This document shows positions 14,197-26,665 of a stretch of 56,746 nt of DNA, piece after piece. The number at the start of each line of letters is the position of its first letter. The stretch's first letter is position 1. Source of the DNA: a virus. The notes under the pieces are model-generated. The model was not told the DNA's origin, did no database searches, and saw nothing but the letters and a program-made list of their open reading frames with translations. A program made the position numbers and the translations under genes. The DNA is taken from positions 1 to 56,746 of the IMG/VR virus record IMGVR_UViG_3300045988_153221. One strand, written 5' to 3'.

Positions 14197-14757
14197 ATGG
14201 CTATTAACTTAGACAATATTACAATAAATAGAATAGGGTGGAAAGATGACCCTGATACAAGTACACCACTTGATAGTGGAAATTTAAAAGAAATGGAAAA
14301 TAATGCAGAAAGTGGAATAAATAAACTAAAAACAAATGTACAAACAGCATTTACAGATTTATTAAAATTAGTATTCCCCATTGGTTCAACATATATAACT
14401 CAAGACAACACAGACCCAAAATTAATCTTAGGCTTTGGAACTTGGGAAAGATTAAAAGGAAGAGTTTGTTTAGGTTTAGATGAAGATGATACAGATTTGA
14501 ACACAATTGGAAATGTAGGCGGAGAAAAGAAACACACATTAACCGTACAAGAGATGCCTCGACACAAGCATAATTTTCAAGAAAGTGGCAGAGTCGTTTA
14601 TTGGGATGCGGGATTAACTCCGATGGGAGGATTAACAACAGGGTCAAATGTTCAAGTTACATATAGCTCTAATACAAAAGATAGTGGTGGTAATCAATCG
14701 CACAATAATATGCAACCATATGAAGTAGTAGGATATATGTGGATTAGAAAATCTTAA
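14197..14757 (+). CDS. tail fibre / baseplate protein with tail-collar-like domain
   Basis: The motifs ...GGEKKHTLTVQEMPRHKH... and ...GGNQSHNNMQPYEVVGYMW... resemble phage tail collar domain proteins. Confidence 0.6.
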   Translation: MAINLDNITINRIGWKDDPDTSTPLDSGNLKEMENNAESGINKLKTNVQTAFTDLLKLVFPIGSTYITQDNTDPKLILGFGTWERLKGRVCLGLDEDDTDLNTIGNVGGEKKHTLTVQEMPRHKHNFQESGRVVYWDAGLTPMGGLTTGSNVQVTYSSNTKDSGGNQSHNNMQPYEVVGYMWIRKS

Positions 14758-14784: not shown

Positions 14785-14813
14785 TAGACAAAAACAAAAA
14801 AAACAGGTATAAT
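14785..14813 (+). promoter_or_regulatory. sigma-70-like promoter TAGACA-N17-TATAAT
   Basis: Lies in the 87-bp gap before the XhlA-like gene. Spacing counted by hand. Confidence 0.45.
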
Positions 14814-14844: not shown

Positions 14845-15138
14845 ATGGATATTAATGAAAGAGTAGACCAATTAGACAACAGAATGTCTAAAATAGAAGA
14901 AAAAATTAATACTTCTATTCCTGAAATTCAATCTGGAATTCGAGAGATTAAAATTTTATTACAAGAAAGACCAATTCAAGAGCAATTAAAAAATGATATT
15001 CTTGAGAAAGATATTTTAAGTCTTGAAAGCAGAGTGAAAAAAATTGAGGATAATCAAAGTTGGCTGTGGAAAACAGTTGTTGGAGCAATAATAACAGTAG
15101 TTGTAGGAGCAATAGTTTTTACAGTTAAAATGATGTAA
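14845..15138 (+). CDS. xhlA: XhlA-like (haemolysin XhlA family) lysis-associated membrane protein
   Basis: 97 aa with an N-terminal coiled coil and a single C-terminal TM (WLWKTVVGAIITVVVGAIVFTV), the same architecture as PBSX XhlA. Confidence 0.6.
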   Translation: MDINERVDQLDNRMSKIEEKINTSIPEIQSGIREIKILLQERPIQEQLKNDILEKDILSLESRVKKIEDNQSWLWKTVVGAIITVVVGAIVFTVKMM

Positions 15139-15150
15139 TAGGTATTTAAT

Positions 15151-15708
15151 ATGGATTTATTAGAAATATTTTTAGGGCAAATACCAGAAACAATTTATTT
15201 TGCATTATTTATGATGTTTGCAAAAGATTTAAAAGAGAAGAGAATATTATATATTTTATTAATGGTTATAGAATATTTATTATTGAAACATTTTATAAAA
15301 TATAATATGTGGTTTCAGATATTATATACAATAATGCAATTTGTGATATTGAAAATTTTATATAAAGAAAAATCACAAATAACAGATATATTTACATTTA
15401 CGATAGCAAGTATAATATTGATACTATCTTGTTCAGTTTTATATTTTATAATTTGGGAAACTATAAATAATTTTATTATATATGTGATTTTAAATAGACT
15501 TTTATTGATATTATTTTTGATAATATTTCATAATAAACTTTATAAAATCCAAAAATTATATAAGAGATTATGGAATAGAAATGATAAAAACAAAAATAAA
15601 ATAAAATCCACAACTTTTAGAGCAATTAATGTCGTTATATTTAATATTATATTTTATATAATAAATTTAGGAATGTTGTTTATAATATTTCAAAATGGAG
15701 GTGTTTAA
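15151..15708 (+). CDS. polytopic membrane protein (5-6 TM), function unknown
   Basis: 185 aa, strongly hydrophobic with periodic K/R-rich loops. First gene of the agr-like cluster. Confidence 0.6.
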   Translation: MDLLEIFLGQIPETIYFALFMMFAKDLKEKRILYILLMVIEYLLLKHFIKYNMWFQILYTIMQFVILKILYKEKSQITDIFTFTIASIILILSCSVLYFIIWETINNFIIYVILNRLLLILFLIIFHNKLYKIQKLYKRLWNRNDKNKNKIKSTTFRAINVVIFNIIFYIINLGMLFIIFQNGGV

Positions 15709-15709
15709 T

Positions 15710-15763
15710 ATGGGTGGCTGGGATAGCTGGTTTTGGATTTTTGATGCAAAAGATGGAGAGTAA
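15710..15763 (+). CDS. 17-codon small ORF MGGWDSWFWIFDAKDGE (candidate signalling/pro-peptide)
   Basis: ATG lies 6 nt after a strong GGAGGTG RBS. The ORF exactly fills the gap between two membrane-protein genes. It has an aromatic core and an acidic tail. Confidence 0.35.
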   Translation: MGGWDSWFWIFDAKDGE

Positions 15764-15766
15764 GAT

Positions 15767-16336
15767 ATGGAGAAATTTAAATATATTTTTAGTAGTTTAA
15801 TTTTTAATATTGCAGAAACAATCCTAATTTTCTTGATAGGCAAACTATTATGTTTGCCTACCAATCATATTATAACAATTATGCTATGTTTTATGTTAAG
15901 TAGAGGTTGTTTTGGCAAAGCATTACATTTTAAAACTTGGTATCGTTGCTTAGTTTGGAGCTCACTCATATTATTAAGTTTATTTTTAATTTTAAAAGTA
16001 GATTTAATAATATCAATTTTATTTACCATATTTGCAGCATTTATAATGACTGGAAAATCTAATATAAATGATATGTATTTATGGAAACCTAATAATGAAA
16101 GTAAATATTCTGATATAGAAGAATACATTAAATATCATGAATATGATGATGAATTAATAGAATTTGAAGATAAAGTAAAGAAAAGAGATAGTAAACTTTA
16201 TTTAATTTATAAATATAGATTTAAAGACCATAAAACATTTAGTGAAATATCCGAACTTCTCGATATACCTACTAATAGAATTACAGAAGAATTGGATAAA
16301 GTAGCTTTTAGTTTAAGAATTTATTGCAAAATATAA
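15767..16336 (+). CDS. membrane protein with AgrB-like His/Cys motif fused to a C-terminal HTH
   Basis: N-terminal TM segments carry SRGCFGKALHFKTWYRC, with His-to-Cys spacing +7 as recalled for AgrB H77/C84. The C-terminus FSEISELLDIPTNRITEELDKVAFSLR resembles sigma-70 region 4. Confidence 0.55.
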   Translation: MEKFKYIFSSLIFNIAETILIFLIGKLLCLPTNHIITIMLCFMLSRGCFGKALHFKTWYRCLVWSSLILLSLFLILKVDLIISILFTIFAAFIMTGKSNINDMYLWKPNNESKYSDIEEYIKYHEYDDELIEFEDKVKKRDSKLYLIYKYRFKDHKTFSEISELLDIPTNRITEELDKVAFSLRIYCKI

Positions 16337-16338
16337 AA

Positions 16339-16366
16339 TCAGTTTTTAACTGGTTTTATTTTTTTT
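16339..16366 (+). terminator. weak rho-independent terminator
   Basis: Short hairpin cagtt-ttt-aactg followed by a T-run (ttttatttttttt). Confidence 0.45.
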
Positions 16367-16513
16367 GACTTTTTTATTATACACCGTGTAGAGAAAATAT
16401 TTTTAAATAGATATAATGGTGTCAGAAAGGAGATAAATATAAATTAATATCTGGTTGCCTATTACTGGAAAATTTGTGTTTATCTCTATTCATTTTAATA
16501 GGAGGGGTATAAT

Positions 16514-17008
16514 ATGTATAATAATTACCCAGTATATGGAAATAATCAAATGTATATGCAAGATTTACAAAATATGAGAGATAGAATTGATATGCAAATG
16601 AGGCAAATGCAACAAACTCAAACTCCAAATCAAGGTCAACAAACTCCATCAATAAATCAAACATTTCAATTAAGTAATCCTCAACAAAATGCTAATGATT
16701 TTGATGGGAAATATACAAATAATATTGATGAAGTAAAAAATACTTTAACACTAAAAAATACATTATTTGTAAATAAAGAAATGAATACATTATGGCTAAA
16801 AGATACAGCTGGAAATATAAAAACTTATTCTTTAAAAGAAGTTATTGAATTAGATGAAAAAGATAAAATGATTATTGACCTTCAAAAACAAATAGAAGAT
16901 TTGAAAGGAGTTGTTTTAAATGCAAAATCCGATGTTAAATATGATGATGCAAATGTTGCAAAGCAGAAATCCACAAATGTTTCAAATGATAAATCAAGCA
17001 AAAAATAA
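16514..17008 (+). CDS. Q/N/M-rich hypothetical protein
   Basis: Track ORF with RBS GGAGGGG. Its 3' 89 nt overlap the next ORF in another frame. Confidence 0.55.
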   Translation: MYNNYPVYGNNQMYMQDLQNMRDRIDMQMRQMQQTQTPNQGQQTPSINQTFQLSNPQQNANDFDGKYTNNIDEVKNTLTLKNTLFVNKEMNTLWLKDTAGNIKTYSLKEVIELDEKDKMIIDLQKQIEDLKGVVLNAKSDVKYDDANVAKQKSTNVSNDKSSKK

Positions 17009-17144
17009 TGGTACAAATCCACAAGATATGCTAAAACAAATGGTAGGAAATTCAAACCCTGAACAAATGCAAAATATTATTCAGCAAGCAAAATCAATGG
17101 GTTGTCCTGATGATATATTAAATCAATTACAAAATTTAAAATAA
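16920..17144 (+). CDS. Q/M/N-rich small protein
   Basis: ATG follows AAAGGAG. The composition matches the N-terminus of the upstream ORF. Confidence 0.55.
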   Translation: MQNPMLNMMMQMLQSRNPQMFQMINQAKNNGTNPQDMLKQMVGNSNPEQMQNIIQQAKSMGCPDDILNQLQNLK

Positions 17145-17203
17145 GGTAATATGTTCTTAATTGGACTTATTATAGATATTTTAAAAGAAAGGAGGAATAT
17201 ATT

Positions 17204-17884
17204 ATGGATACAATGCCTTTAACTGCTGCTGATGTCGGAGCTGTTGTTGGAAACAATAGAGGTTACAATGATGGTTATGGTGCTTGGGGTGGAGAATGGT
17301 TTTGGATTATTATAATATTATTTGCTTTCTGGGGAAATAATGGTTGGGGAAACAATAGAAACAACGAAGTTGATATTGATACTCGTTTCTTGGAGAGAGA
17401 TATATTTAATACTAACCAAAATGTTTCTAATACAGGTTGCCAAACTCAAAGAGATGTATTAGAAAATAGATATACAACTCAATTAGGTTTAGCAAATCTA
17501 GGAGCTCAAACACAAAATTGTTGTTGTGAAACTCAAAAAGAAATCCTACAAAACAGATATGACAATGCTTTACAAACTCAAACATTGTCTAGTCAATTAG
17601 CACAATGTTGTTGCGATTTAAGAGCCGAAAGTCTTGCTAATACTCAAAAAATATTAGATAAAATGTGTGAAAATGAAATTAATACATTGAGAACTGATTT
17701 ACAATCTGCTCAATTACAAATTTCTCAATTATCACAAACTTCTAATATTGTAAATTCGTTAAGACCTACACCAATTCCAGCATATTTAACATGTTCTCCA
17801 TACGAAAGTGCTTTCTATGGAAGATTTGGAAATTTTGGAAATTGTGGTTGCGGCTGTGGTTGTGGAAACACTACAATTATATAG
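17204..17884 (+). CDS. Cys-rich membrane-anchored protein with internal repeats
   Basis: 226 aa. It has a Gly/aromatic N-terminus plus a TM (GYNDGYGAWGGEWFWIIIILFAFWG), two TQ(R/K)(D/E)(V/I)L(E/Q)NRY repeats, CCC triplets and a C-terminal GNCGCGCGCGN. Confidence 0.7.
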   Translation: MDTMPLTAADVGAVVGNNRGYNDGYGAWGGEWFWIIIILFAFWGNNGWGNNRNNEVDIDTRFLERDIFNTNQNVSNTGCQTQRDVLENRYTTQLGLANLGAQTQNCCCETQKEILQNRYDNALQTQTLSSQLAQCCCDLRAESLANTQKILDKMCENEINTLRTDLQSAQLQISQLSQTSNIVNSLRPTPIPAYLTCSPYESAFYGRFGNFGNCGCGCGCGNTTII

Positions 17885-17931
17885 CAAATGCCAATAAGGT
17901 ATCTCGATTACGAGAACTTGCTATTTTTAAA

Positions 17932-17963
17932 AGAGATAGATAAGTTCTATCTCTATTTTTTTT
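17932..17963 (+). terminator. rho-independent terminator
   Basis: agagatag-ataagtt-ctatctct hairpin plus T8. Confidence 0.7.
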
Positions 17964-17979
17964 ACAAGGAGGAATAAAA

Positions 17980-18429
17980 ATGGGAAATTATATAGGAACA
18001 ATTAATTCAGTTCAAGAACCTGCTATAACATTAGCAAATAATTCATCTAATATTGCTCTTTCTACTGATGTTGTTAGAACTAGAAGTGCAAACTGTTGTG
18101 GGTGGTTAAATCATTCAACAGGAAGTACACAATATCAAATAACTAAAGCAGGAATATATGAGATTATGTTTAATACAAATGTAACAAGTGCTACAGCTGG
18201 AAAAATTGCATTAGGAATTAAAGCAAATGGAGAGTTATTAAGTGGAACTGAAATGGACACAACCGTTGCTGCAAATGTATTTACAAATGTTTCTGCCAAT
18301 AGACAAATTAGAGTTTGTTGCGATGGAAGTACAACAATAACAGTTGGAAGTTTACCAACATCTGAAGCAGATGCAACTCAAATACCTATTATAAAAAATG
18401 CTTCTCTAATAATTAAAAAAATTGCATAA
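17980..18429 (+). CDS. hypothetical protein, possibly BclA-C/C1q-like jelly-roll
   Basis: 149 aa. The pattern ...AGIYEIMFNTNVTSATAGKIALGIKANGELLSGTE... resembles BclA C-terminal/C1q-type domains. There are no collagen repeats. Confidence 0.65.
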   Translation: MGNYIGTINSVQEPAITLANNSSNIALSTDVVRTRSANCCGWLNHSTGSTQYQITKAGIYEIMFNTNVTSATAGKIALGIKANGELLSGTEMDTTVAANVFTNVSANRQIRVCCDGSTTITVGSLPTSEADATQIPIIKNASLIIKKIA

Positions 18430-18439
18430 ATAATTCATT

Positions 18440-18601
18440 ATGAATAATTATGACTATACTTGGTTTTTTATTATTATGACTTTGTTTAATTCTAGTTTAG
18501 GTATTAACAATAATGAAAGAAATATAGAACAAGAAGAAAAACAAGAAATAATAAATAAAAAACTTGATAAGATTTTAAGTTTATTAGAGGAGATAAAATG
18601 A
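18440..18601 (+). CDS. small protein with N-terminal hydrophobic segment
   Basis: 53-aa ORF below the track cutoff (MNNYDYTWFFIIMTLF...). Its stop overlaps the next start (ATGA). Confidence 0.45.
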   Translation: MNNYDYTWFFIIMTLFNSSLGINNNERNIEQEEKQEIINKKLDKILSLLEEIK

Positions 18602-18834
18602 ATAATGATGCAGATAGATTTGGAAGTTTTTGGTTTTGGCTTGCGGTTGTTTCTAATTATTGTCAAATAGAAAGCTACGAATTAAATAAAAAGCAAATTA
18701 GTAATGATGAATTATTAAAATATCTTGAACATCAAGATAACGATTATTTAAGAACAATAATAGAACAAAATATCCAATTAATAGAGCAGAATAATATAAT
18801 TATTCAACTCTTGAAAGGAGGCAAAAGTGCATAA
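18598..18834 (+). CDS. hypothetical protein
   Basis: Track ORF, translationally coupled to its neighbours. Confidence 0.6.
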   Translation: MNNDADRFGSFWFWLAVVSNYCQIESYELNKKQISNDELLKYLEHQDNDYLRTIIEQNIQLIEQNNIIIQLLKGGKSA

Positions 18835-19267
18835 AAAATACTTAAAAAAAATAATTGAAAAAGGTTCAAAAATTGATATGGAAAAATTAGCAGAATTTAT
18901 GGAAGAAACTATGGACCATATAAAAGAATGTGACCCTAAATTATATGATAAAATAGAATGTAAAATGTATGAAATGGCTTATGGAAAAATGTTGACAGAA
19001 GATATGGCTTCAAAATGGGTACATTCTATGAAACCATATGGAATGAAATGGACTAAAGAACAGACAGATGAAGTTATAAAAAAATATGGTTTAAATATAA
19101 ATGAAATAGATTTTTGGGCTATTATGAATGCAATGTATAACGATTATCGTAATATTTTTGATGACAATGTTGAAACTTATATAAAATTATCAAGAGATTT
19201 TATAAAAGATGAAGATGCAGTTGATGGAAAAGTTTATGAATATTGGAAATATATTACAAAACATTAA
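18827..19267 (+). CDS. hypothetical protein
   Basis: Track ORF (GTG start after GGAGG), followed by a terminator hairpin. Confidence 0.65.
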   Translation: MHKKYLKKIIEKGSKIDMEKLAEFMEETMDHIKECDPKLYDKIECKMYEMAYGKMLTEDMASKWVHSMKPYGMKWTKEQTDEVIKKYGLNINEIDFWAIMNAMYNDYRNIFDDNVETYIKLSRDFIKDEDAVDGKVYEYWKYITKH

Positions 19268-19290
19268 AAAGGTTTAATAGGCAACCTTTT
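19267..19290 (+). terminator. terminator hairpin
   Basis: aaaaggtt-taataggc-aacctttt. Confidence 0.55.
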
Positions 19291-19294
19291 ATGT

Positions 19295-19368
19295 GGTACA
19301 TTGGACAAAAGAAGTCGCTTTGACTGCAAATCAAAGAGAACGCAGGGCAGTACTGCGATGTACCTCCA
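19295..19368 (+). tRNA. non-canonical tRNA-like element, anticodon GCA (Cys)
   Basis: Hand fold: 7-bp acceptor GGTACAT/ATGTACC plus encoded TCCA, anticodon arm TTTGA-CTGCAAA-TCAAA and T stem CGCAG/CTGCG. The T loop is GGCAGTA (no TTC) and the D loop lacks GG. Confidence 0.5.
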
Positions 19369-19383
19369 AATTTAATATTTATA

Positions 19384-19412
19384 TTGACATATGTATTATA
19401 TAATATTATAAT
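19384..19412 (+). promoter_or_regulatory. consensus sigma-70 promoter TTGACA-N17-TATAAT
   Basis: Exact hexamers with a 17-nt spacer, 95 nt upstream of the HNH gene. Confidence 0.6.
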
Positions 19413-19507
19413 AAATATAGGCTAAATAGAGAGTAGCTACTCTATTGAAAAGCAACCCAACTTGCCTGCCTATTTTTATTTTTTAGTTGGGAGAAAGTTG
19501 GGTATAT

Positions 19508-19963
19508 ATGAGTGGAAAATATCATCGTTTAAGTCTTGGAAAAGATGAAAATGGAAAAAGAATATTTATCGATGAACATCGTTTTATAATGGAAAATTTT
19601 TTAGGGAGAAAACTTAATAGTAATGAAGTTGTCCATCATATAAATGGTAATAAAAGTGATAATAGAATTGAAAATTTACAATTAATGACTTTGGAAGAAC
19701 ATTCAAAATTGCATTCTAAAAATACTATTATAAGTAAAGAAACTAGACAAAAAATGATACAAAATCACTATAAAGGACCATCTAAAAATAGAAAATTAGA
19801 TGATAAAATAATAATATCTATTGCAAATAATTATAAAATTGGAATGAGTTTAAGACAAATAGATAAAAAATATAATTTAGCAAATGGTACTTCGGGAAAT
19901 ATAATAAACGGAAGAACTTACAAAGATAAACAAGTTATAATAAAAAGAATATTGACAAGTTAA
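19508..19963 (+). CDS. HNH homing endonuclease
   Basis: The HNH_3-type motif ...VVHHINGNKSDNRIENLQLMTLEEHSKLH... is present. The gene is free-standing between terminators, with ATG 19508 after GGGAGAAAG. Confidence 0.85.
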   Translation: MSGKYHRLSLGKDENGKRIFIDEHRFIMENFLGRKLNSNEVVHHINGNKSDNRIENLQLMTLEEHSKLHSKNTIISKETRQKMIQNHYKGPSKNRKLDDKIIISIANNYKIGMSLRQIDKKYNLANGTSGNIINGRTYKDKQVIIKRILTS

Positions 19964-20020
19964 AAGATATTAATTATAATATATTTGTATGAACAATATT
20001 TGGCTGTTAAATTCATCAGA

Positions 20021-20067
20021 ACAATAGAAAGTCTTGTTTTTTCAAGAAACTTCTATTGTTTTTTTAT
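20021..20067 (+). terminator. rho-independent terminator
   Basis: Long hairpin acaatagaa...ttctattgt plus T7. Confidence 0.7.
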
Positions 20068-20073
20068 TTTATA

Positions 20074-20082: not shown

Positions 20083-20174
20083 TATATTGCCAATCAAAAA
20101 TTTTCTTAATATTTTTACCTTTTTATATTTTTTTATAGAATTAGATGTTTTTTATATCTAATTCTATTTTTTTT

Positions 20175-20183
20175 TGATATAAT
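20175..20183 (+). promoter_or_regulatory. extended -10 element TGATATAAT upstream of holin
   Basis: Lies 35 nt upstream of the holin ATG. Confidence 0.4.
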
Positions 20184-20217: not shown

Positions 20218-20502
20218 ATGGAAAATTTATTACAAATTACTGCTATTGCAATACTTGCAGAGGCTGTTTGGGAAAATTTAAAAATGATTTGGCAAGATGG
20301 AAAAGTAAGTATTGATAGAATAGGAGCTTTAATTGTTAGCATAGTTATTTCGATGGCTACGCAATTAGATGTATTTGCAATATTAAATTTTGGCATTTCT
20401 ATTCCATTTGTAGGTAGCTTTTTAACTGGAATTCTTATAAGTAGAGGTGCTAATTTTATTCACGATTTGTTAAATAAAATACAAACAATTTCTAATAGTT
20501 AG
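20218..20502 (+). CDS. holin
   Basis: 94 aa with 2-3 TM segments and RBS AAGGAGGG, directly upstream of the endolysin. Confidence 0.65.
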   Translation: MENLLQITAIAILAEAVWENLKMIWQDGKVSIDRIGALIVSIVISMATQLDVFAILNFGISIPFVGSFLTGILISRGANFIHDLLNKIQTISNS

Positions 20503-20513
20503 GGGGAAACAAA

Positions 20514-20630
20514 ATGGATAATATAACAGAAGAAACAGTTGAATTTTCACAAGAATTATATGAAAAGAATATAAAAGAAAACACATTTGAAACTGAATAT
20601 GAGGCAGGTGTTGATAATGCAAATAACTAA
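20514..20630 (+). CDS. small acidic ORF (38 aa)
   Basis: ATG follows AGGGGG. It fills the holin-endolysin gap and overlaps the endolysin start. Confidence 0.35.
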   Translation: MDNITEETVEFSQELYEKNIKENTFETEYEAGVDNANN

Positions 20631-21348
20631 TGTAACTTGTCCAAGTTCAAAATATCCTACAAAATGTCCTGATGTAACAGTAAAAAATGGAATATGCGTA
20701 CATAATACGGCAAATGATGCAAGTGCTATGTCAGAAATATCATATATGATAGGTAGACCAGATAAAGTTTCATTCCATGTTGCTGCTGATGATGAAAGAA
20801 TTGTAACAGGACTTCCATTTAATAGAAGTTGTTATGCAGCTGGAGATGGAAGATATGGAAGAGGAAATGCAAATAAAATTAATATAGAAATCTGTTATTC
20901 AAAATCAGGAGGAGAAAGATTTGAAAAATCAGAAGATAATGCAGCTGCTTATATTGCATATCTTTTAAGACAATATGGTTGGGGAATAGAAAAAGTATCA
21001 AAGCATCAAGATTATAGTGGAAAATATTGCCCACATAGAACTTTAGATATGGGCTGGGAAAGATTTTTAAATAAAATTAGGTATCATTTAGGAGAACAAC
21101 AAAAACCAGTTCCAGAAATTAAAGATAAAGGAGGAAATTTAGAAATGGCAAGAGTATATCAAAATGGAAGCACTCCAGAAACTGTTTATGCAGATACTGC
21201 ATTATCAAAAAAAATAGGTACTTTAAATCCATGGGAAAAAGCAGAATATCTTTCAATTGACAATAATAGACCTTTAGTAAGATATACAGTTGATGGAACT
21301 AATACTAAAAAATGTGGTTATGTATTATGGAAAGGTGGAGCAAAATAA
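20617..21348 (+). CDS. N-acetylmuramoyl-L-alanine amidase endolysin
   Basis: Amidase_2-type motifs are present: ICVHNTAN..., VSFHVAADD..., NINIEICY..., KHQDYSGKYCPH. The C-terminal about 70 aa is probably a binding domain. Confidence 0.9.
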   Translation: MQITNVTCPSSKYPTKCPDVTVKNGICVHNTANDASAMSEISYMIGRPDKVSFHVAADDERIVTGLPFNRSCYAAGDGRYGRGNANKINIEICYSKSGGERFEKSEDNAAAYIAYLLRQYGWGIEKVSKHQDYSGKYCPHRTLDMGWERFLNKIRYHLGEQQKPVPEIKDKGGNLEMARVYQNGSTPETVYADTALSKKIGTLNPWEKAEYLSIDNNRPLVRYTVDGTNTKKCGYVLWKGGAK

Positions 21349-21372: not shown

Positions 21373-21446
21373 GCAGATTTAGTGTAATGGTAGCATATCG
21401 GTCTCCAAAACCGTTGGTAATGGTTCAAATCCATTAATCTGTGCCA
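21373..21446 (+). tRNA. trnW: tRNA-Trp (anticodon CCA)
   Basis: Hand-folded cloverleaf: acceptor GCAGATT/AATCTGT (G1-U72), anticodon loop CTCCAAA, T arm AATGG-TTCAAAT-CCATT, encoded GCCA end. Confidence 0.8.
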
Positions 21447-21545: not shown

Positions 21546-22061
21546 GTTTATTAAATTTTCCATATACCAATCTATTAATTCAATTTTATCTTGTAAAAAG
21601 GCAATTACTTCAACTTTATCTTCCCAATTTTCTTTTGTTATTTCTTGCTTTAAATTATAAATAACTTTATTATATATTCTATATCTATTAGAAGCTTCAA
21701 TTAATTTTGAATTTATAATCGTTTTTCTTCTTTTTTCTTCTTCTCTTTTTAGTTTTTGTTGTCTTTGCAATTCTATTAATCTTTTTTTGTTTAATCTTCC
21801 TCTAGTTTTCAAACCTAAATTAAAATCATAATTTATTTTTTCCATTGCTTCTTGGAAATTTAAATTAAAATATTGCTTAACAAATTCAATTAAATCTCCT
21901 GTTCTATTACAAGAAAAACAATAAAAACTTTTTTTATAAACTTTCATACTAGGAGAATTATCTTTATGAAAAGGACAATGACACATATATTTTTTTATTT
22001 CTATTCCATATTTATTTAGAATATCTTTCATATTCAATATATTTAATATTTCATCTTTCAT
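21534..22061 (-). CDS. CHC2 zinc-finger (DnaG primase N-terminal-like) protein
   Basis: CHCPFHKDNSPSMKVY...FYCFSCNRTGDLIEFV motif. Confidence 0.75.
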   Translation of the reverse strand: MKDEILNILNMKDILNKYGIEIKKYMCHCPFHKDNSPSMKVYKKSFYCFSCNRTGDLIEFVKQYFNLNFQEAMEKINYDFNLGLKTRGRLNKKRLIELQRQQKLKREEEKRRKTIINSKLIEASNRYRIYNKVIYNLKQEITKENWEDKVEVIAFLQDKIELIDWYMENLINKKK

Positions 22062-22459
22062 TTTATACTTTCCTCTAATAATTTAATTTTATTTTTCTTT
22101 TCTTCAATTTCATCTTTTAATTTTAATATTTCTTGCTCTATTGAAAATTTTTTAATTCTTTTCTTAACTTCAATATTTATATTATATATAATAAATATTC
22201 CATAATCATGAATTGTTTTTATAATTAAATCTTCATTTTTTAGTTTCTTTTTAATTCTTCTAATTATAGTTAATAAAGGAGATTTGAAATAAGCATAATC
22301 TTCTTCACTAGTATTATATATATACATTATTAATTCTTTATATGTGCAATTTCTATATCTGTTTTTTATTAAAAATTCCATAAGTTTAAATTCATTTGGT
22401 GTCAATTTTATTTTTTTATTTCTTGTTACTAATTCTTGTGTATTTTCATCTAACATCAT
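22058..22459 (-). CDS. winged-helix (OmpR/PhoB C-terminal-like) DNA-binding protein
   Basis: KLTPNEFKLMEFLIKNRYRNCTYKELIMYIY resembles the Trans_reg_C pattern. Confidence 0.6.
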   Translation of the reverse strand: MMLDENTQELVTRNKKIKLTPNEFKLMEFLIKNRYRNCTYKELIMYIYNTSEEDYAYFKSPLLTIIRRIKKKLKNEDLIIKTIHDYGIFIIYNINIEVKKRIKKFSIEQEILKLKDEIEEKKNKIKLLEESIK

Positions 22460-26141: not shown

Positions 26142-26650
26142 TATTTATCTTCTCCTTTTTTCTTTGTTGTTTTCTTTGTTTTCTTTGTTTTCTTTGTAGT
26201 AGTTTTTTTTGTTGCTTTTACTTTTGCTGTTTTTGTTGTTTTTTTAATAGTTTCTTCTTTTGGTTCTTCTTTTTGTTCTTCTTTTGGTTCTTCTCTTTCA
26301 GGTTCTGCACTATCAGGTTCTGTTTTAGAAACTATTTCATATTTTTCTAATAATTCTTTATAATCTTTTTCTAATTTTTTGTTTTGCTTTTTTATTTTAT
26401 TATTTATTTCATTTGATGTTTTTAATTCTGTTCTTAATCCTTCTTTTTCACTTTCTACTATATTCATTTTTTCATTCATATCTTCTATTTTTTCTTCTAA
26501 GCCCATTGTTTTATTTAAAGCATCGTTTTTCTTATTTCTATAATCTTCAACTAGTTCTTTTTCTTTTTTTAATTTTGCTTTATAATTTATAACAATGAAA
26601 ATATTTAAGATTAAAAGTATTATTAAAATTGCTATAATTGTAATTAACAT
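26141..26650 (-). CDS. membrane-anchored coiled-coil protein with K/T/E-rich tail
   Basis: N-terminal TM, central coiled coil and low-complexity KKT repeats (tandem 9-bp DNA repeats). Confidence 0.6.
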   Translation of the reverse strand: MLITIIAILIILLILNIFIVINYKAKLKKEKELVEDYRNKKNDALNKTMGLEEKIEDMNEKMNIVESEKEGLRTELKTSNEINNKIKKQNKKLEKDYKELLEKYEIVSKTEPDSAEPEREEPKEEQKEEPKEETIKKTTKTAKVKATKKTTTKKTKKTKKTTKKKGEDK

Positions 26651-26665
26651 TGCTTTCCCTCCTTT

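What the first reader, a model, noticed from the sequence alone, without database searches (positions are those of the whole stretch)
15151..16336. Candidate phage-encoded agr-like peptide-signalling cassette: polytopic membrane protein, 17-codon aromatic peptide ORF and an AgrB-like/HTH fusion
The cassette lies downstream of the tail fibre and the XhlA-like gene, behind its own promoter (14785..14813).
- A 185-aa protein with 5-6 TM segments.
- A 17-codon ORF, MGGWDSWFWIFDAKDGE. It has a strong GGAGGTG RBS and exactly fills the intergenic gap.
- A 189-aa protein whose membrane half carries SRGCFGKALHFKTWYRC. The His-to-Cys spacing is +7, as I recall for the catalytic H77/C84 of staphylococcal AgrB (RRYAHGAHAPSSFWC). 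Its soluble C-terminal half looks like a sigma-70 region-4 HTH.

Phage-borne agr genes are known (C. difficile phage phiCDHM1). A peptide plus a half-AgrB fused directly to a DNA-binding domain, with no histidine kinase, would be a non-canonical one-component variant.
Basis: partly seen in the sequence, partly recalled or inferred. Interest (0 to 1): 0.7.

Follow-up and report, generated by a model that had tools for sequence, protein, structure and literature searches.

The report
Phage AgrB-half/HTH fusion with mini-peptide
A large, unnamed group of gut and rumen phages carries a three-gene module: a new six-helix membrane protein, a 15-19-residue tryptophan-rich peptide, and the catalytic half of the peptide-processing enzyme AgrB fused to a DNA-binding domain that appears to control the next promoter, which makes it a testable candidate for a new, compact kind of phage peptide signalling.

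Summary
All the described features are real. The 189-aa protein passes Pfam AgrB above the curated cut-off, but only over the N-terminal half. Its His54 and Cys61 align with the catalytic H77/C84 of AgrB. Cys61 is the only invariant column among 78 relatives of 20-54% identity.

The 17-codon ORF is a genuine gene. It is present in every related locus examined (over 100) and has a strong ribosome-binding site. Its invariant Ser is written with both codon families, and its core S-W-F-W-I followed by an acidic tail resembles clostridial autoinducing peptides without their leader.

The 185-aa six-helix partner matches nothing known.

New here: the HTH domain comes in at least three types. Each type is paired with its own conserved element next to the -35 of a promoter just downstream. 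This held in 46 loci and in 24 further loci scored with unchanged rules. A recombination breakpoint lies exactly at the membrane/HTH junction.

Best reading: an agr-derived peptide-processing and transcription-control module. Cell-to-cell signalling itself is not shown. No paper or named homologue was found.

The parts
14845..15138 (+). XhlA-like membrane protein (97 aa). It lies directly upstream of the cassette and is probably co-transcribed with it, but it is a frequent rather than obligatory neighbour.
   Evidence: Pfam XhlA 2.7e-12. An XhlA-like gene precedes the triad in about 12 of 42 related loci; in most others a tail-fibre-like gene does. It lies inside the 94-99% identity block shared with L038.
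15151..15708 (+). 185-aa six-helix membrane protein of a new family. Its role is inferred: partner of the AgrB-like domain, or exporter or handler of the peptide.
   Evidence: 975 homologues. It is always adjacent to the peptide ORF. AlphaFold pLDDT 73, six TM helices. Basic loops at 25-30, 72-76 and 130-152 predict N-out/C-out topology. No hit in Pfam, NCBIfam, PHROGs, PADLOC, PDB sequences or Foldseek. Unrelated to the AgrB-like domain, AgrC or Davies gp44/45.
15697..15703 (+). Shine-Dalgarno GGAGGTG of the peptide ORF, embedded in the last codons (N-G-G-V) of the 185-aa gene.
   Evidence: Sequence read directly. 41 of 44 distinct loci have such a motif 4-16 nt upstream of the peptide ATG.
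15710..15763 (+). 17-codon peptide gene, MGGWDSWFWIFDAKDGE. It reads as a leaderless AgrD-like precursor, with an inferred ring S6-W-F-W-I10 and tail FDAKDGE.
   Evidence: Present in all related loci. Ser is invariant and uses AGT/AGC and TCT/TCA codons. Third-position divergence is 0.43 against 0.22 and 0.23 at the other positions. The motif occurs once per locus and nowhere else in the window.
15767..16051 (+). Membrane domain (about aa 1-95, four TM helices) of the 189-aa protein. It is homologous to the N-terminal, catalytic half of AgrB. R46, G50, His54 (15926..15928) and Cys61 (15947..15949) sit at the cytoplasmic face.
   Evidence: Pfam AgrB 27.6 bits against a cut-off of 23. 37 of 78 relatives hit AgrB, best 5e-10. 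Cys61 is the only invariant column and His54 is at least 90% conserved. H/C align with S. aureus, Listeria and phage Davies AgrB. Helices.
16064..16336 (+). Cytoplasmic C-terminal domain (about aa 100-189) with a sigma-70 region-4-like HTH (helices at about aa 158-186). This is the class I type (…TNRITEELDK…).
   Evidence: pLDDT 80-93. Foldseek top local matches are sigma region 4, with rmsd about 2 A over about 60 residues, although E-values are not significant. Sigma70_r4 or r4_2 is hit by 7 of 78 relatives, best 4.3e-5. PHROG sigma factor 0.007.
16333..16366 (+). Intrinsic terminator (A+T-rich hairpin plus U-run) that ends the cassette transcript.
   Evidence: -9.4 kcal/mol, z -4.1. A hairpin plus T-run is present at the same place in related loci.
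16381..16392 (+). Conserved element ACACCGTGTAGA (dyad ACACnGTGT) overlapping the -35-like hexamer. It is the inferred binding site of the class I HTH domain.
   Evidence: It is the only copy in the 56.7-kb window. It is conserved in class I loci while the flanks diverge. The element type tracks the HTH type in 46 + 24 loci with no cross-class case.
16389..16417 (+). Promoter-like site TAGAGA-17-TATAAT for the downstream operon.
   Evidence: Consensus scan, 10 of 12 matches. The same layout (element, -35-like, about 17 nt, TATAAT) is seen in related and distant loci.
16425..16491 (+). Structured leader hairpin of the downstream transcript, of unknown role.
   Evidence: -23.4 kcal/mol, z -3.2. 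Nested hairpins with a YGCCUAUU loop recur in related loci. No Rfam match.
16514..19963 (+). Likely regulated operon. It encodes a Q/N-rich protein, a 74-aa protein, a Gly/Cys-rich membrane protein (PHROG 16490), a BclA_C-like protein (PHROG 20016), small proteins, a DUF7841 protein and an HNH endonuclease.
   Evidence: The first four gene types follow the triad even in distant, high-GC relatives. Strong terminators at 20020..20068 and 20137..20177 separate the operon from the holin and amidase genes.

Best explanation
This is an agr-derived, phage-specific module that joins peptide processing to transcription control.

Shown:
- Three genes are always found together and are translationally coupled.
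- The third protein is a four-helix membrane domain homologous to the catalytic N-terminal half of AgrB. The residues needed for AgrB peptidase activity are conserved and face the cytoplasm. This domain is fused to a cytoplasmic sigma-region-4-like HTH domain.
- The middle gene encodes a 15-19-residue peptide under purifying selection.
- Each HTH type is paired with its own conserved DNA element abutting the -35 of a promoter directly downstream.

Inferred:
- The peptide is the substrate of the AgrB-like domain. Cys61 would attack after the fifth residue from the invariant Ser and release the acidic tail ([FY]-[DNS]-x-x-[DE]-G-E). The Ser hydroxyl would then resolve the acyl-enzyme into a Trp-rich five-residue lactone with a 1-6-residue exocyclic N-terminus. 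No leader removal would be needed.
- The six-helix partner stands in for the missing C-terminal half of AgrB, or exports the product. Its conserved basic cytoplasmic loops would suit this.
- The fused HTH, held at the membrane, binds the element centred about 40 bp upstream of the predicted start site. It thereby switches the adjacent accessory operon according to the occupancy or acylation state of the peptidase domain. The operon encodes a Q/N-rich protein, a Cys-rich membrane protein and a BclA_C-like protein.

Whether the switch activates or represses is open. Whether the peptide acts between cells is also open.
For: AgrB homology:
- Pfam hit above the cut-off; 37 of 78 diverse relatives also hit AgrB.
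- H54/C61 align with H77/C84 of S. aureus AgrB, and with Listeria and Brevibacillus-phage AgrB.
- Cys61 is the only invariant column and His54 is at least 90% conserved across 20-54% identity.
- R46 and G50 correspond to R70 and G75, which are required for AgrB proteolysis and lie at the cytoplasmic end of helix 2 (PMC10196373).
- The topology from AlphaFold helices and loop charges puts the N-terminus, the catalytic loop and the HTH in the cytoplasm.

Peptide:
- Present in every related locus that was fetched with enough upstream sequence: 47 + 54 close relatives and 7 loci of distant ones.
- Shows a coding signature and a Ser encoded by two codon families.
- Strong SD in 41 of 44 distinct loci.
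- The DGE terminus is kept even where the stop codon lies 45 nt from the next start, so it is not merely that gene's ribosome-binding site.
- Ser-based and Trp-containing five-residue rings are known in clostridial and enterococcal AIPs: [SSWVA], [CLWFT], [CPWII], GBAP. The order agrD-agrB occurs in C. difficile agr1 (PMC12312760).

HTH and promoter:
- Class I pairs with ACACnGTGTAGA, class II with AGTCnGACTGACA-like elements, and class III with TAGGAACCCT. 31 of 46 loci were concordant and none was cross-class; 0 of 100000 permutations reached this.
- The same rules applied unchanged to 24 new metagenome loci gave 19 concordant, 5 unclassified and 0 cross-class.
- The element is about 100% conserved while the flanks are about 50%.
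- It occurs once in the window.
- A 28%-identical relative (L058) with a TARVT helix has GCACGGTGTAGA.
- Window versus L038: 94-99% nucleotide identity up to the membrane/HTH junction, then background. The HTH and the element are swapped together.
- HTH identity is uncoupled from the membrane parts (r 0.02-0.11), whereas the peptide tracks the AgrB-like domain (r 0.40).
Against: - No chemistry is shown. Cleavage, lactone formation and export are all inferred.
- Only half of AgrB is present (profile positions 20-113 of 185).
- The peptide fails the NCBIfam AgrD-type model at E<=1. It lacks the N-terminal amphipathic leader and the P-x-x-P tail, and its tail is 7 residues rather than 14-15.
- One distant branch (L051/L052) keeps H..C but has the peptide MNWPGKWFWGIKK, without Ser or an acidic tail. 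L058 has a different 24-residue peptide.
- The HTH and the element are adjacent on the DNA, so part of their association could reflect linkage rather than binding. The classes were defined after looking at the first data set, although they were then tested on new loci.
- The sigma-4 assignment rests on weak scores for this particular protein (E 0.11; Foldseek E>0.1).
- Confidence in the membrane-domain model is low (pLDDT 45-73).
- Most class II promoters have near-consensus -35 and -10 hexamers, so activation versus repression cannot be decided.
Confidence: 0.55

Rival explanations
1. Self-release model. The AgrB-like peptidase domain cleaves the juxtamembrane linker of its own or a neighbouring fusion protein and frees the HTH domain to act on the downstream promoter. 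The small peptide acts as a competing substrate or allosteric trigger rather than as a precursor of a secreted product.
For: - A DNA-binding domain tethered to a membrane peptidase domain invites regulated proteolysis.
- The linker motifs (TGKSNI.DMYLW, SKY, L.EFE) are highly conserved, and E134 is one of only four columns conserved at 90% or more.
- L054 carries a 109-aa AgrB-half without an HTH beside a full fusion, as if enzyme and substrate/regulator had been separated.
Against: - The linker has no obvious AgrD-like cleavage context.
- The peptide has the ring-plus-acidic-tail layout of an AgrB substrate.
- Membrane-bound transcription factors can act without release (established for ToxR/CadC-type proteins; my own knowledge).
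Confidence: 0.15
2. Interference or weapon model. The cassette's main product is a secreted Trp-rich cyclic peptide that targets the host's or competitors' own agr receptors, or acts as a membrane-active antimicrobial. The HTH merely autoregulates neighbouring genes, independently of the peptide.
For: - AIP analogues commonly cross-inhibit non-cognate AgrC receptors (PMC12312760).
- Phage agr cassettes without a response regulator are thought to work through host components (PMC3901668, PMC11945551).
- No kinase or receiver gene was found among the window ORFs tested.
Against: - The covalent fusion of peptidase and HTH is kept in nearly all of the 182 clusters at 50% identity. That argues for functional coupling.
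- The host is unknown, so no host agr system can be checked.
Confidence: 0.15
3. Degenerate-anchor model. The AgrB-like domain is only a membrane anchor or scaffold that has lost catalysis. The small peptide is a structural micro-subunit of a complex with the two membrane proteins, for example related to lysis or envelope functions near xhlA. The HTH is a conventional repressor of the next operon.
For: - The cassette often lies next to xhlA, holin or endolysin genes.
- The C-terminal half of AgrB is missing.
- The 185-aa protein has no recognisable enzymatic motif.
Against: - Invariance of exactly the catalytic Cys, with His, Arg and Gly, over 20-54% identity is hard to explain for a mere anchor.
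- The window has a separate canonical holin-amidase pair behind its own terminators.
- In L050 and L054 the triad lies beside the repressor, not beside lysis genes.
Confidence: 0.1
4. The small ORF is not a functional peptide gene. It is only a translational-coupling upstream ORF or a chance ORF.
For: - It is short and abuts both neighbours.
- In the window its last codons (GAT GGA GAG) double as the Shine-Dalgarno sequence of the next gene.
Against: - The amino-acid sequence is conserved in over 100 loci and about 70 distinct versions.
- Ser is kept through both AGY and TCN codons.
- Third positions vary twice as much as first and second positions.
- The DGE end is kept where the next start codon is 45 nt away.
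Confidence: 0.03

Closest known systems
AgrB/AgrD of the staphylococcal, listerial and clostridial agr systems (Pfam PF04647; cyclic (thio)lactone autoinducing peptides)
   Same: - The membrane domain is homologous to AgrB, with R/G/H/C equivalents and the H-x6-C spacing at the cytoplasmic face.
- A peptide gene is adjacent.
- The peptide has a nucleophile (Ser), four hydrophobic or aromatic residues, then an acidic tail.
- Ser rings and Trp-rich rings occur in clostridia and enterococci.
- The peptide-then-AgrB order is as in C. difficile agr1.
   Different: - Only the first four helices are present; AgrB profile positions 114-185, including the K129-131 loop, are absent.
- The domain is fused to a DNA-binding domain.
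- The peptide is 15-19 aa with no amphipathic leader and no P-x-x-P. Real AgrDs fetched here are 47, 36 and 39 aa.
- There is no AgrC or AgrA.
- A new six-helix protein is the constant third partner.
Phage-borne agr cassettes: C. difficile phage phiCDHM1 (agrD, agrB, agrC) and Brevibacillus phages Davies, Emery and Abouo (AgrB, putative AgrD, membrane proteins)
   Same: - They are phage-encoded, lack a response regulator, and sit in accessory or lysogeny regions.
- Davies gp46 AgrB matches this family's profile with H..C aligned (PMC3901668).
   Different: - Those AgrBs are full length (172-197 aa) and are not fused.
- Their AgrDs are 39-46 aa with P-x-x-P.
- phiCDHM1 has a kinase.
- The Davies membrane proteins gp44/45 are unrelated to the 185-aa family.
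- tblastn of both window proteins against 50,697 GenBank phage records finds nothing at E<=0.1.
Arbitrium (AimP/AimR/AimX) of SPbeta-like phages
   Same: Both are phage-encoded short peptides genetically coupled to a phage transcription regulator that controls an adjacent transcript. Both show mosaic specificity types.
   Different: - AimP is secreted through a signal peptide, trimmed outside the cell and re-imported.
- AimR is a soluble TPR receptor.
- Here there is no signal peptide and no TPR, and the regulator is membrane-embedded and enzyme-like. No sequence relationship exists.
Membrane-bound one-component transcription regulators (ToxR/CadC type), and sigma region 4 or ECF-sigma -35 recognition
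   Same: - The HTH domain is tethered to the membrane by an N-terminal membrane part.
- The domain folds like sigma region 4.
- The target element lies at or next to the -35. The class III element contains GGAAC, reminiscent of ECF -35 boxes (my own knowledge).
   Different: - There is no periplasmic sensor domain; the membrane part is a peptidase homologue.
- There is no sigma region 2, so the protein cannot be a sigma factor by itself.
- The -10 is a housekeeping-type TATAAT.

Membership tests
AgrB (PF04647) | Profile match above the curated threshold | tested here: met
   27.6 bits against a gathering score of 23, E 2.2e-6. 37 of 78 diverse relatives match, best 5e-10. The NCBIfam AgrB-like equivalog is not met (14 bits against 282).
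AgrB (PF04647) | Catalytic His and Cys seven residues apart (H77/C84), plus R70 and G75, at the cytoplasmic face | tested here: met
   H54/C61 align with H77/C84 of S. aureus, Listeria and phage Davies AgrB. Cys is invariant and His is at least 90% conserved. R46 and G50 are conserved. Roles of the AgrB residues are from PMC10196373.
AgrB (PF04647) | Full six-helix architecture, including the C-terminal half (K129-131 loop needed for AIP formation) | tested here: not met
   Only profile positions 20-113 of 185 are matched. The model has four TM helices followed by a soluble domain.
AgrB (PF04647) | Cleaves the AgrD C-terminal tail and forms a (thio)lactone | not testable with these tools
   This needs biochemistry or LC-MS.
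AgrD / cyclic lactone autoinducer peptide precursors | Profile match (NCBIfam AgrD-type models) | tested here: not met
   No NCBIfam family at E<=1 for the 22-aa reading. The peptide is very short, so the test has little power.
AgrD / cyclic lactone autoinducer peptide precursors | N-terminal amphipathic leader of about 24 aa | tested here: not met
   Only 1-6 residues precede the W-x-S core in about 70 distinct versions.
AgrD / cyclic lactone autoinducer peptide precursors | Cys or Ser followed by four residues, then a charged C-terminal tail, encoded next to agrB | tested here: met
   Ser is invariant, followed by a five-residue hydrophobic or aromatic stretch and then [DNS]-x-x-[DE]-G-E. 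The tail is 7 aa rather than 14-15 and has no P-x-x-P. For comparison with known AIPs see PMC12312760.
Canonical agr quorum-sensing locus (AgrBDCA) | AgrC histidine kinase and AgrA LytTR response regulator | tested here: not met
   No HATPase, HisKA, receiver or LytTR hit among the 47 window ORFs scanned, including all ORFs of 300 aa or more. Not every small ORF was scanned. None was seen in the neighbour lists of related loci.
Sigma-70 region 4 (PF04545/PF08281) HTH | Profile match | tested here: inconclusive
   For this protein E is 0.11, at 12.5 bits against a cut-off of 24.1. 7 of 78 relatives match at E<=0.01, best 4.3e-5. PHROG sigma factor 0.007.
Sigma-70 region 4 (PF04545/PF08281) HTH | Region-4 fold | tested here: inconclusive
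   The C-terminal domain is modelled at pLDDT 80-93. The best local Foldseek matches are sigma region 4 (SigA, SigW, SigE, SigD, SigR), with rmsd about 2 A and target-normalised TM-score 0.63-0.79, but all E-values exceed 0.1.
Sigma-70 region 4 (PF04545/PF08281) HTH | Sequence-specific recognition of a -35-region element | tested here: inconclusive
   The co-variation of HTH type with the element at the -35 is strong and was replicated. It is comparative evidence only, and linkage is a caveat.
Arbitrium (AimR/AimP) | Signal-peptide-bearing propeptide and a TPR receptor/regulator | tested here: not met
   The peptide has no leader. No TPR or AimR-type Pfam hit was found in the cassette.

The most novel reading that the evidence does not exclude
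A one-protein phage quorum-sensing switch. The same AgrB-derived domain that matures a leaderless, membrane-permeant Trp-rich lactone would also report its level. It would do so through acyl-enzyme occupancy or product binding, passed directly to the fused DNA-binding domain. Infected cells or lysogens could then count each other without a kinase, a response regulator or an import system. Exchangeable HTH-operator pairs and diverging peptides would provide private channels for different phages.
Probability: 0.3. Interest if true: 0.9.

Novelty: new variant of a known kind. Interest (0 to 1): 0.8.

Why it matters
Peptide communication in phages is so far known mainly from arbitrium, plus a few phages that carry host-like agr genes.

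This module is agr-derived but has a different architecture: half a peptidase fused to a transcription-factor domain, a minimal leaderless precursor, and a new membrane partner. It is common, with about 1000 clusters at 90% identity and 182 at 50%. All come from unnamed gut, rumen and other metagenome phages, in both A+T-rich and G+C-rich lineages.

If the peptide is processed as proposed, the module would:
- show that the N-terminal half of AgrB is a self-sufficient catalytic unit;
- offer a small, tractable system for the still unsolved questions of AgrB mechanism and AIP export;
- define a new class of phage regulatory switch with a predicted ligand, a predicted operator and a predicted regulated operon, each directly testable.

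The natural HTH-operator swaps also provide ready-made orthogonal parts.

Tried and rejected
Searches that found nothing:
- DNA similarity to GenBank phages: none. tblastn of both proteins against the same collection: none.
- PDB sequence searches with family profiles: no AgrB or other meaningful hit.
- Foldseek of the 185-aa model: nothing.
- PADLOC: no defence-system match for the cassette.
- Rfam: no family for the leader hairpin.
- Source names for five NCBI-derived clusters: none carry any name.
- Five literature searches: no description of an AgrB-HTH fusion.

Ideas tested and rejected:
- The 185-aa protein as a paralogue of the AgrB-like domain: rejected (hhalign probability 0.2%).
- The 185-aa protein as an AgrC-type sensor, or as a relative of Davies gp44/45: no similarity.
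- The 185-aa protein as the phage holin: rejected. A canonical holin-like gene (20218..20502) and an Amidase_2 endolysin (20587..21348) lie elsewhere, behind their own terminators.
- Read-through fusion of the peptide to the AgrB-like protein: rejected, because the frame relationship varies between loci.
- Autoregulation through a second copy of the element: rejected, because there is only one copy in the window.

Runs that failed or had limited power:
- Three viral-contig scans with single distant relatives returned nothing, and one alignment was too diverse to scan with.
- My class II element pattern was too narrow. It left 8 + 5 class II loci unclassified, although by eye those I re-read (L020, L026-type, L055) carry variants such as GTCTGACTGACA.
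Full report
**1. What is there**

The window is an A+T-rich (about 27% G+C) phage genome of about 57 kb. Late genes run on the + strand and replication genes on the - strand.

After the tail-fibre or baseplate gene at 14197..14757 (Pfam Gp10_C) come the following genes.
- An XhlA-like gene, 14845..15138.
- A 185-aa membrane protein, 15151..15708.
- A 17-codon ORF, 15710..15763, encoding MGGWDSWFWIFDAKDGE.
- A 189-aa protein, 15767..16336.

The peptide's GGAGGTG ribosome-binding site lies in the last codons of the 185-aa gene. The last peptide codons overlap the ribosome-binding site of the 189-aa gene.

The promoter-like site 14785..14813 is a good consensus match. However, it precedes xhlA, and such matches are no commoner here than in shuffled sequence.

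**2. A large, unnamed family**

- The 189-aa and 185-aa proteins have 1055 and 975 homologue clusters at 90% identity.
- A full HMMER scan of 1.84 billion representatives finds 182 clusters at 50% identity. Nearly all are 185-220 aa and cover both domains.
- No source gives any of them a meaningful name.
- Loci come from animal-gut, rumen and human-gut metagenomes, IMG/VR viral contigs, and MAGs whose bins have inconsistent taxonomy. That is what mis-binned phage contigs would look like.
- No GenBank phage has a detectable homologue.

**3. The AgrB-like half**

- Pfam AgrB is matched above the gathering score, but only for profile positions 20-113 of 185. 37 of 78 diverse relatives match on their own, best 5e-10.
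- In the alignment of those 78 relatives (20-54% identity), Cys61 is the only invariant column and His54 is at least 90% conserved.
- A profile of the family aligns ..alHYkkwikC.. with GAHAPSSFWC of S. aureus AgrB (H77..C84), with Listeria GLHSDSEFVC, and with KGYHAKSLTTC of the full-length AgrB of Brevibacillus phage Davies.
It retrieved staphylococcal agrB at 60% identity, and the other AgrBs were read from fetched records.
- R46 and G50 correspond to R70 and G75. Together with H77 and C84, these are required for AgrB proteolysis and lie at the cytoplasmic end of helix 2 (PMC10196373).
- The AlphaFold model has four TM helices (2-27, 32-49, 55-76, 80-94). Because the HTH domain must be cytoplasmic, the N-terminus and the 45-61 catalytic loop are cytoplasmic as well, as in AgrB.
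- The C-terminal half of AgrB is absent.

**4. The peptide is a real gene and looks like a stripped-down AgrD**

- It is present in all 12 genome loci and 35 viral loci, and in all 54 metagenome loci with enough upstream sequence. The seven metagenome loci that my strict pattern missed carry obvious variants.
- The consensus is M-(x0-5)-W-[DNPRKH]-S-[WF]-[FLC]-[WFL]-[IFLAV]-[FYL]-[DSN]-x-x-[DE]-G-E-stop, 15-19 residues long.
- Among 41 distinct nucleotide versions, Ser is invariant yet encoded by AGT, AGC, TCT and TCA. Third codon positions differ twice as often as first and second positions.
- 41 of 44 distinct loci have a GGAGGTG-like site upstream.
- The G-E end persists where the next gene starts 45 nt away, so it is not only that gene's ribosome-binding site.
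- The motif occurs once per locus and nowhere else in the window.
- The layout is a nucleophile, four hydrophobic or aromatic residues, then an aromatic residue and an acidic tail. It parallels known AIP precursors. Known rings include C. difficile [SSWVA] and [CPWII], C. perfringens [CLWFT], Listeria [CFMFV], and the Ser-lactone GBAP. Some clostridial loci lack agrCA, and C. difficile agr1 has the order agrD-agrB (PMC12312760).
- Unlike AgrD, the peptide has no amphipathic leader and no P-x-x-P, and its tail is 7 residues long. AgrDs fetched here are 47, 36 and 39 aa (PMC10196373).
- Distant relatives keep the triad:
  - L050: MKDGWPPMNSWLIFCDTEEGE.
  - L054: MPIWSWLLFCDSEKGE.
  - L053: (V)IWSFFGFVNSETGE.
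  - L059: MGWIPSLFFFWHKDGE.
  - L057: MWDTFWGMSATYGE, with Thr in place of Ser.
- L051/L052 have MNWPGKWFWGIKK, and L058 has an unrelated 24-mer.

**5. The 185-aa partner**

- The model shows six TM helices at pLDDT 73. The basic loops (25-30, 72-76 and especially 130-152, with nine Lys/Arg) predict an N-out/C-out topology.
- Most conserved residues face the cytoplasm (LYKEKxQITDIFTF, LWNRNDK, KSTTFR), or are Asn/Phe in the last helix.
- It matches nothing: Pfam, NCBIfam, PHROGs, PADLOC, PDB sequences, Foldseek, the AgrB-like domain, AgrC, or Davies gp44/45.
- It is the most variable part (mean identity 49%) and can differ while the peptide and AgrB-like domain stay nearly identical.
- Its role as AgrB-complement or exporter is inference only.

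**6. The HTH domain and its probable target (new)**

- The C-terminal 80-90 residues are confidently modelled (pLDDT 80-93). The best local structural matches are sigma region 4, although without significant E-values. Seven of 78 relatives hit Sigma70_r4 or r4_2.
- Downstream of the gene, almost every locus has a hairpin plus T-run terminator. In the window this is 16333..16366, z -4.1.
- A promoter-like site follows. In the window this is TAGAGA-17-TATAAT at 16389..16417.
- A conserved 10-14-nt element abuts or overlaps the -35. Its sequence follows the type of HTH domain:
  - class I (…TNRIT.ELDK…) pairs with ATACAC[CA]GTGTAGA (window 16381..16392);
  - class II (…[DNS]PR[IV][VA]E.LDK.AFAIR…) pairs with AGTCnGACTGACA, ATTCnGAATGACA and related elements;
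  - class III, with an entirely different C-terminus (…NTI[IT]K[KR]ECATIYSILERPL.LPP…), pairs with TAGGAACCCT[AG]ACA.
- In 46 non-redundant loci, 31 were concordant and none was cross-class (5 of 5 class I, 9 of 9 class III). None of 100000 permutations reached this.
- I had defined the classes after seeing those data. I therefore applied the unchanged rules to 24 new non-redundant metagenome loci. Of these, 19 were concordant (1 of 1 class I, 4 of 4 class III, 14 of 19 class II), 5 were unclassified and 0 were cross-class.
- Within a class the element is close to 100% conserved while the flanks are about 50%.
- The element occurs once in the whole window.
- Distant relatives keep the layout with their own short dyads:
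  - L058 (28% identity, TARVT helix): GCACGGTGTAGA.
  - L059 (high G+C, TRRIN helix): ACCCCGGGTAGA.
  - L050: AGTGGACACTGACA.
  - L054: an inverted repeat flanking TGACA.
- A natural swap supports the pairing. The window and L038 are 94-99% identical from 14800 to about 16050, covering xhlA, the 185-aa gene, the peptide and the AgrB-like domain. They then drop to background. L038 carries a class III HTH and the class III element.
- Across 37 distinct triads, HTH identity is uncorrelated with the membrane parts (r 0.02-0.11). The peptide correlates with the AgrB-like domain (0.40) and with the 185-aa protein (0.34).
- The element is centred roughly 40 bp upstream of the predicted start site. 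That position is compatible with activation. However, many class II promoters have near-consensus hexamers, which would suit repression. The direction is therefore open.
- Caveat: the HTH coding region and the element lie about 50 nt apart, so descent contributes to the association.

**7. Context and output**

- The triad usually follows the last tail-fibre gene or an XhlA-like gene, at the end of the late operon.
- In L050 and L054 it lies in the early region, beside a LexA/CI-type repressor. L054 has an AgrB-half without HTH plus a second full fusion.
- The genes behind the regulated promoter are themselves conserved, even in high-G+C relatives. They encode a Q/N/P/Y-rich protein, a 73-aa protein, a Gly/Cys-rich membrane protein ending in CGCGC (PHROG 16490), and a BclA_C-like protein (PHROG 20016).
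- In the window, two strong terminators separate this operon from the holin-like gene and the Amidase_2 endolysin.
- No integrase, kinase or receiver was found among the ORFs scanned.

**8. How it most likely works**

Shown:
- the gene triad and its coupling;
- AgrB-type catalytic residues under the strongest constraint in the family;
- a selected peptide with an AIP-like core;
- HTH-type-specific elements at the adjacent promoter;
- modular exchange at the domain junction.

Inferred:
- the peptide is cleaved after the fifth residue from Ser and cyclised to a lactone by the AgrB-like domain;
- the six-helix protein assists or exports;
- the tethered HTH sets transcription of the adjacent operon according to the state of the peptidase domain.

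Whether the product acts between cells (true quorum sensing), only within the producing cell, or on host receptors cannot be decided here.

**9. Relation to what is known**

Phage agr genes are known. phiCDHM1 carries agrD, agrB and agrC. Brevibacillus phages Davies, Emery and Abouo carry AgrB, a putative AgrD and membrane proteins (PMC3901668). Reviews list nothing like the present fusion, and five literature searches found none.

The membrane domain is a divergent, truncated member of the AgrB superfamily. The protein as a whole, the leaderless peptide and the 185-aa partner form an architecture not described in the held literature.

Noticed in passing
window 34402..34872 (-): A 156-aa phage protein carries a Spo0A C-terminal DNA-binding domain (Pfam Spo0A_C, 2.2e-15). 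The distant relative L050 has a Spo0E-like gene (L050 3288..3473) directly after its triad. Both suggest that these phages interfere with the sporulation control of a spore-forming host.
   Followed up: no
window 16425..16491 (+); also L001, L002, L009, L010, L038 and L046 downstream regions: The leader of the operon behind the regulated promoter folds into a long hairpin (-23.4 kcal/mol, z -3.2). Related loci keep nested hairpins with a YGCCUAUU loop. Class III loci add a terminator-like second hairpin that repeats GCCUAUU, so this may be an attenuator. No Rfam family matches.
   Followed up: partly
window 16514..18429 (+); L004, L005, L009, L051, L053, L055, L059: A conserved gene set of unknown function follows the triad, even in high-G+C relatives. 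It comprises a Q/N/P/Y-rich protein of about 140-180 aa, a protein of about 73 aa, a Gly/Cys-rich membrane protein ending in CGCGC (PHROG 16490), and a BclA_C-like protein (PHROG 20016). The composition is reminiscent of spore-coat or exosporium proteins, but that is only an impression.
   Followed up: partly
window 16920..17008: The 164-aa gene (16514..17008) and the 74-aa gene (16920..17144) overlap by 89 nt in different frames. In L051 the homologous genes do not overlap.
   Followed up: no
L054 3021..4151: This locus has a split arrangement. The peptide MPIWSWLLFCDSEKGE is followed by a 109-aa AgrB-half that keeps H..C but has no HTH, and then by a second, full AgrB-half/HTH paralogue. The locus lies beside an HTH_3 repressor.
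   Followed up: partly
L051 3433..3474 and L052 1951..1992: A distant branch keeps the XhlA gene, the membrane protein, a peptide and the AgrB/HTH order, and keeps the H-x6-C motif. Its peptide, however, is MNWPGKWFWGIKK. The W-F-W core is retained, Lys stands where Ser would be, and the tail is basic rather than acidic.
   Followed up: no
window 16166..16168 (Glu134 of the 189-aa protein): Glu134, in the conserved L.EFE..LK helix of the cytoplasmic domain, is one of only four columns conserved at 90% or more across 78 diverse relatives (with Met1, His54 and Cys61). It might be a third catalytic or interface residue. This is unexplained.
   Followed up: no
window 22058..22459 (-) and 21373..21443 (+): A 133-aa protein consists of an OmpR/PhoB-type Trans_reg_C DNA-binding domain without a receiver domain. 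A tRNA gene sits just after the endolysin.
   Followed up: no
L060 (Brevibacillus phage Davies, KC595518) 26243..28283: This is a canonical phage agr cassette next to the integrase. It has two unrelated membrane proteins (gp44, gp45), a full-length AgrB (gp46, 172 aa) and a 39-aa AgrD-like peptide with a PVAPKEL tail (gp47). It is a useful contrast to the fusion described here.
   Followed up: partly
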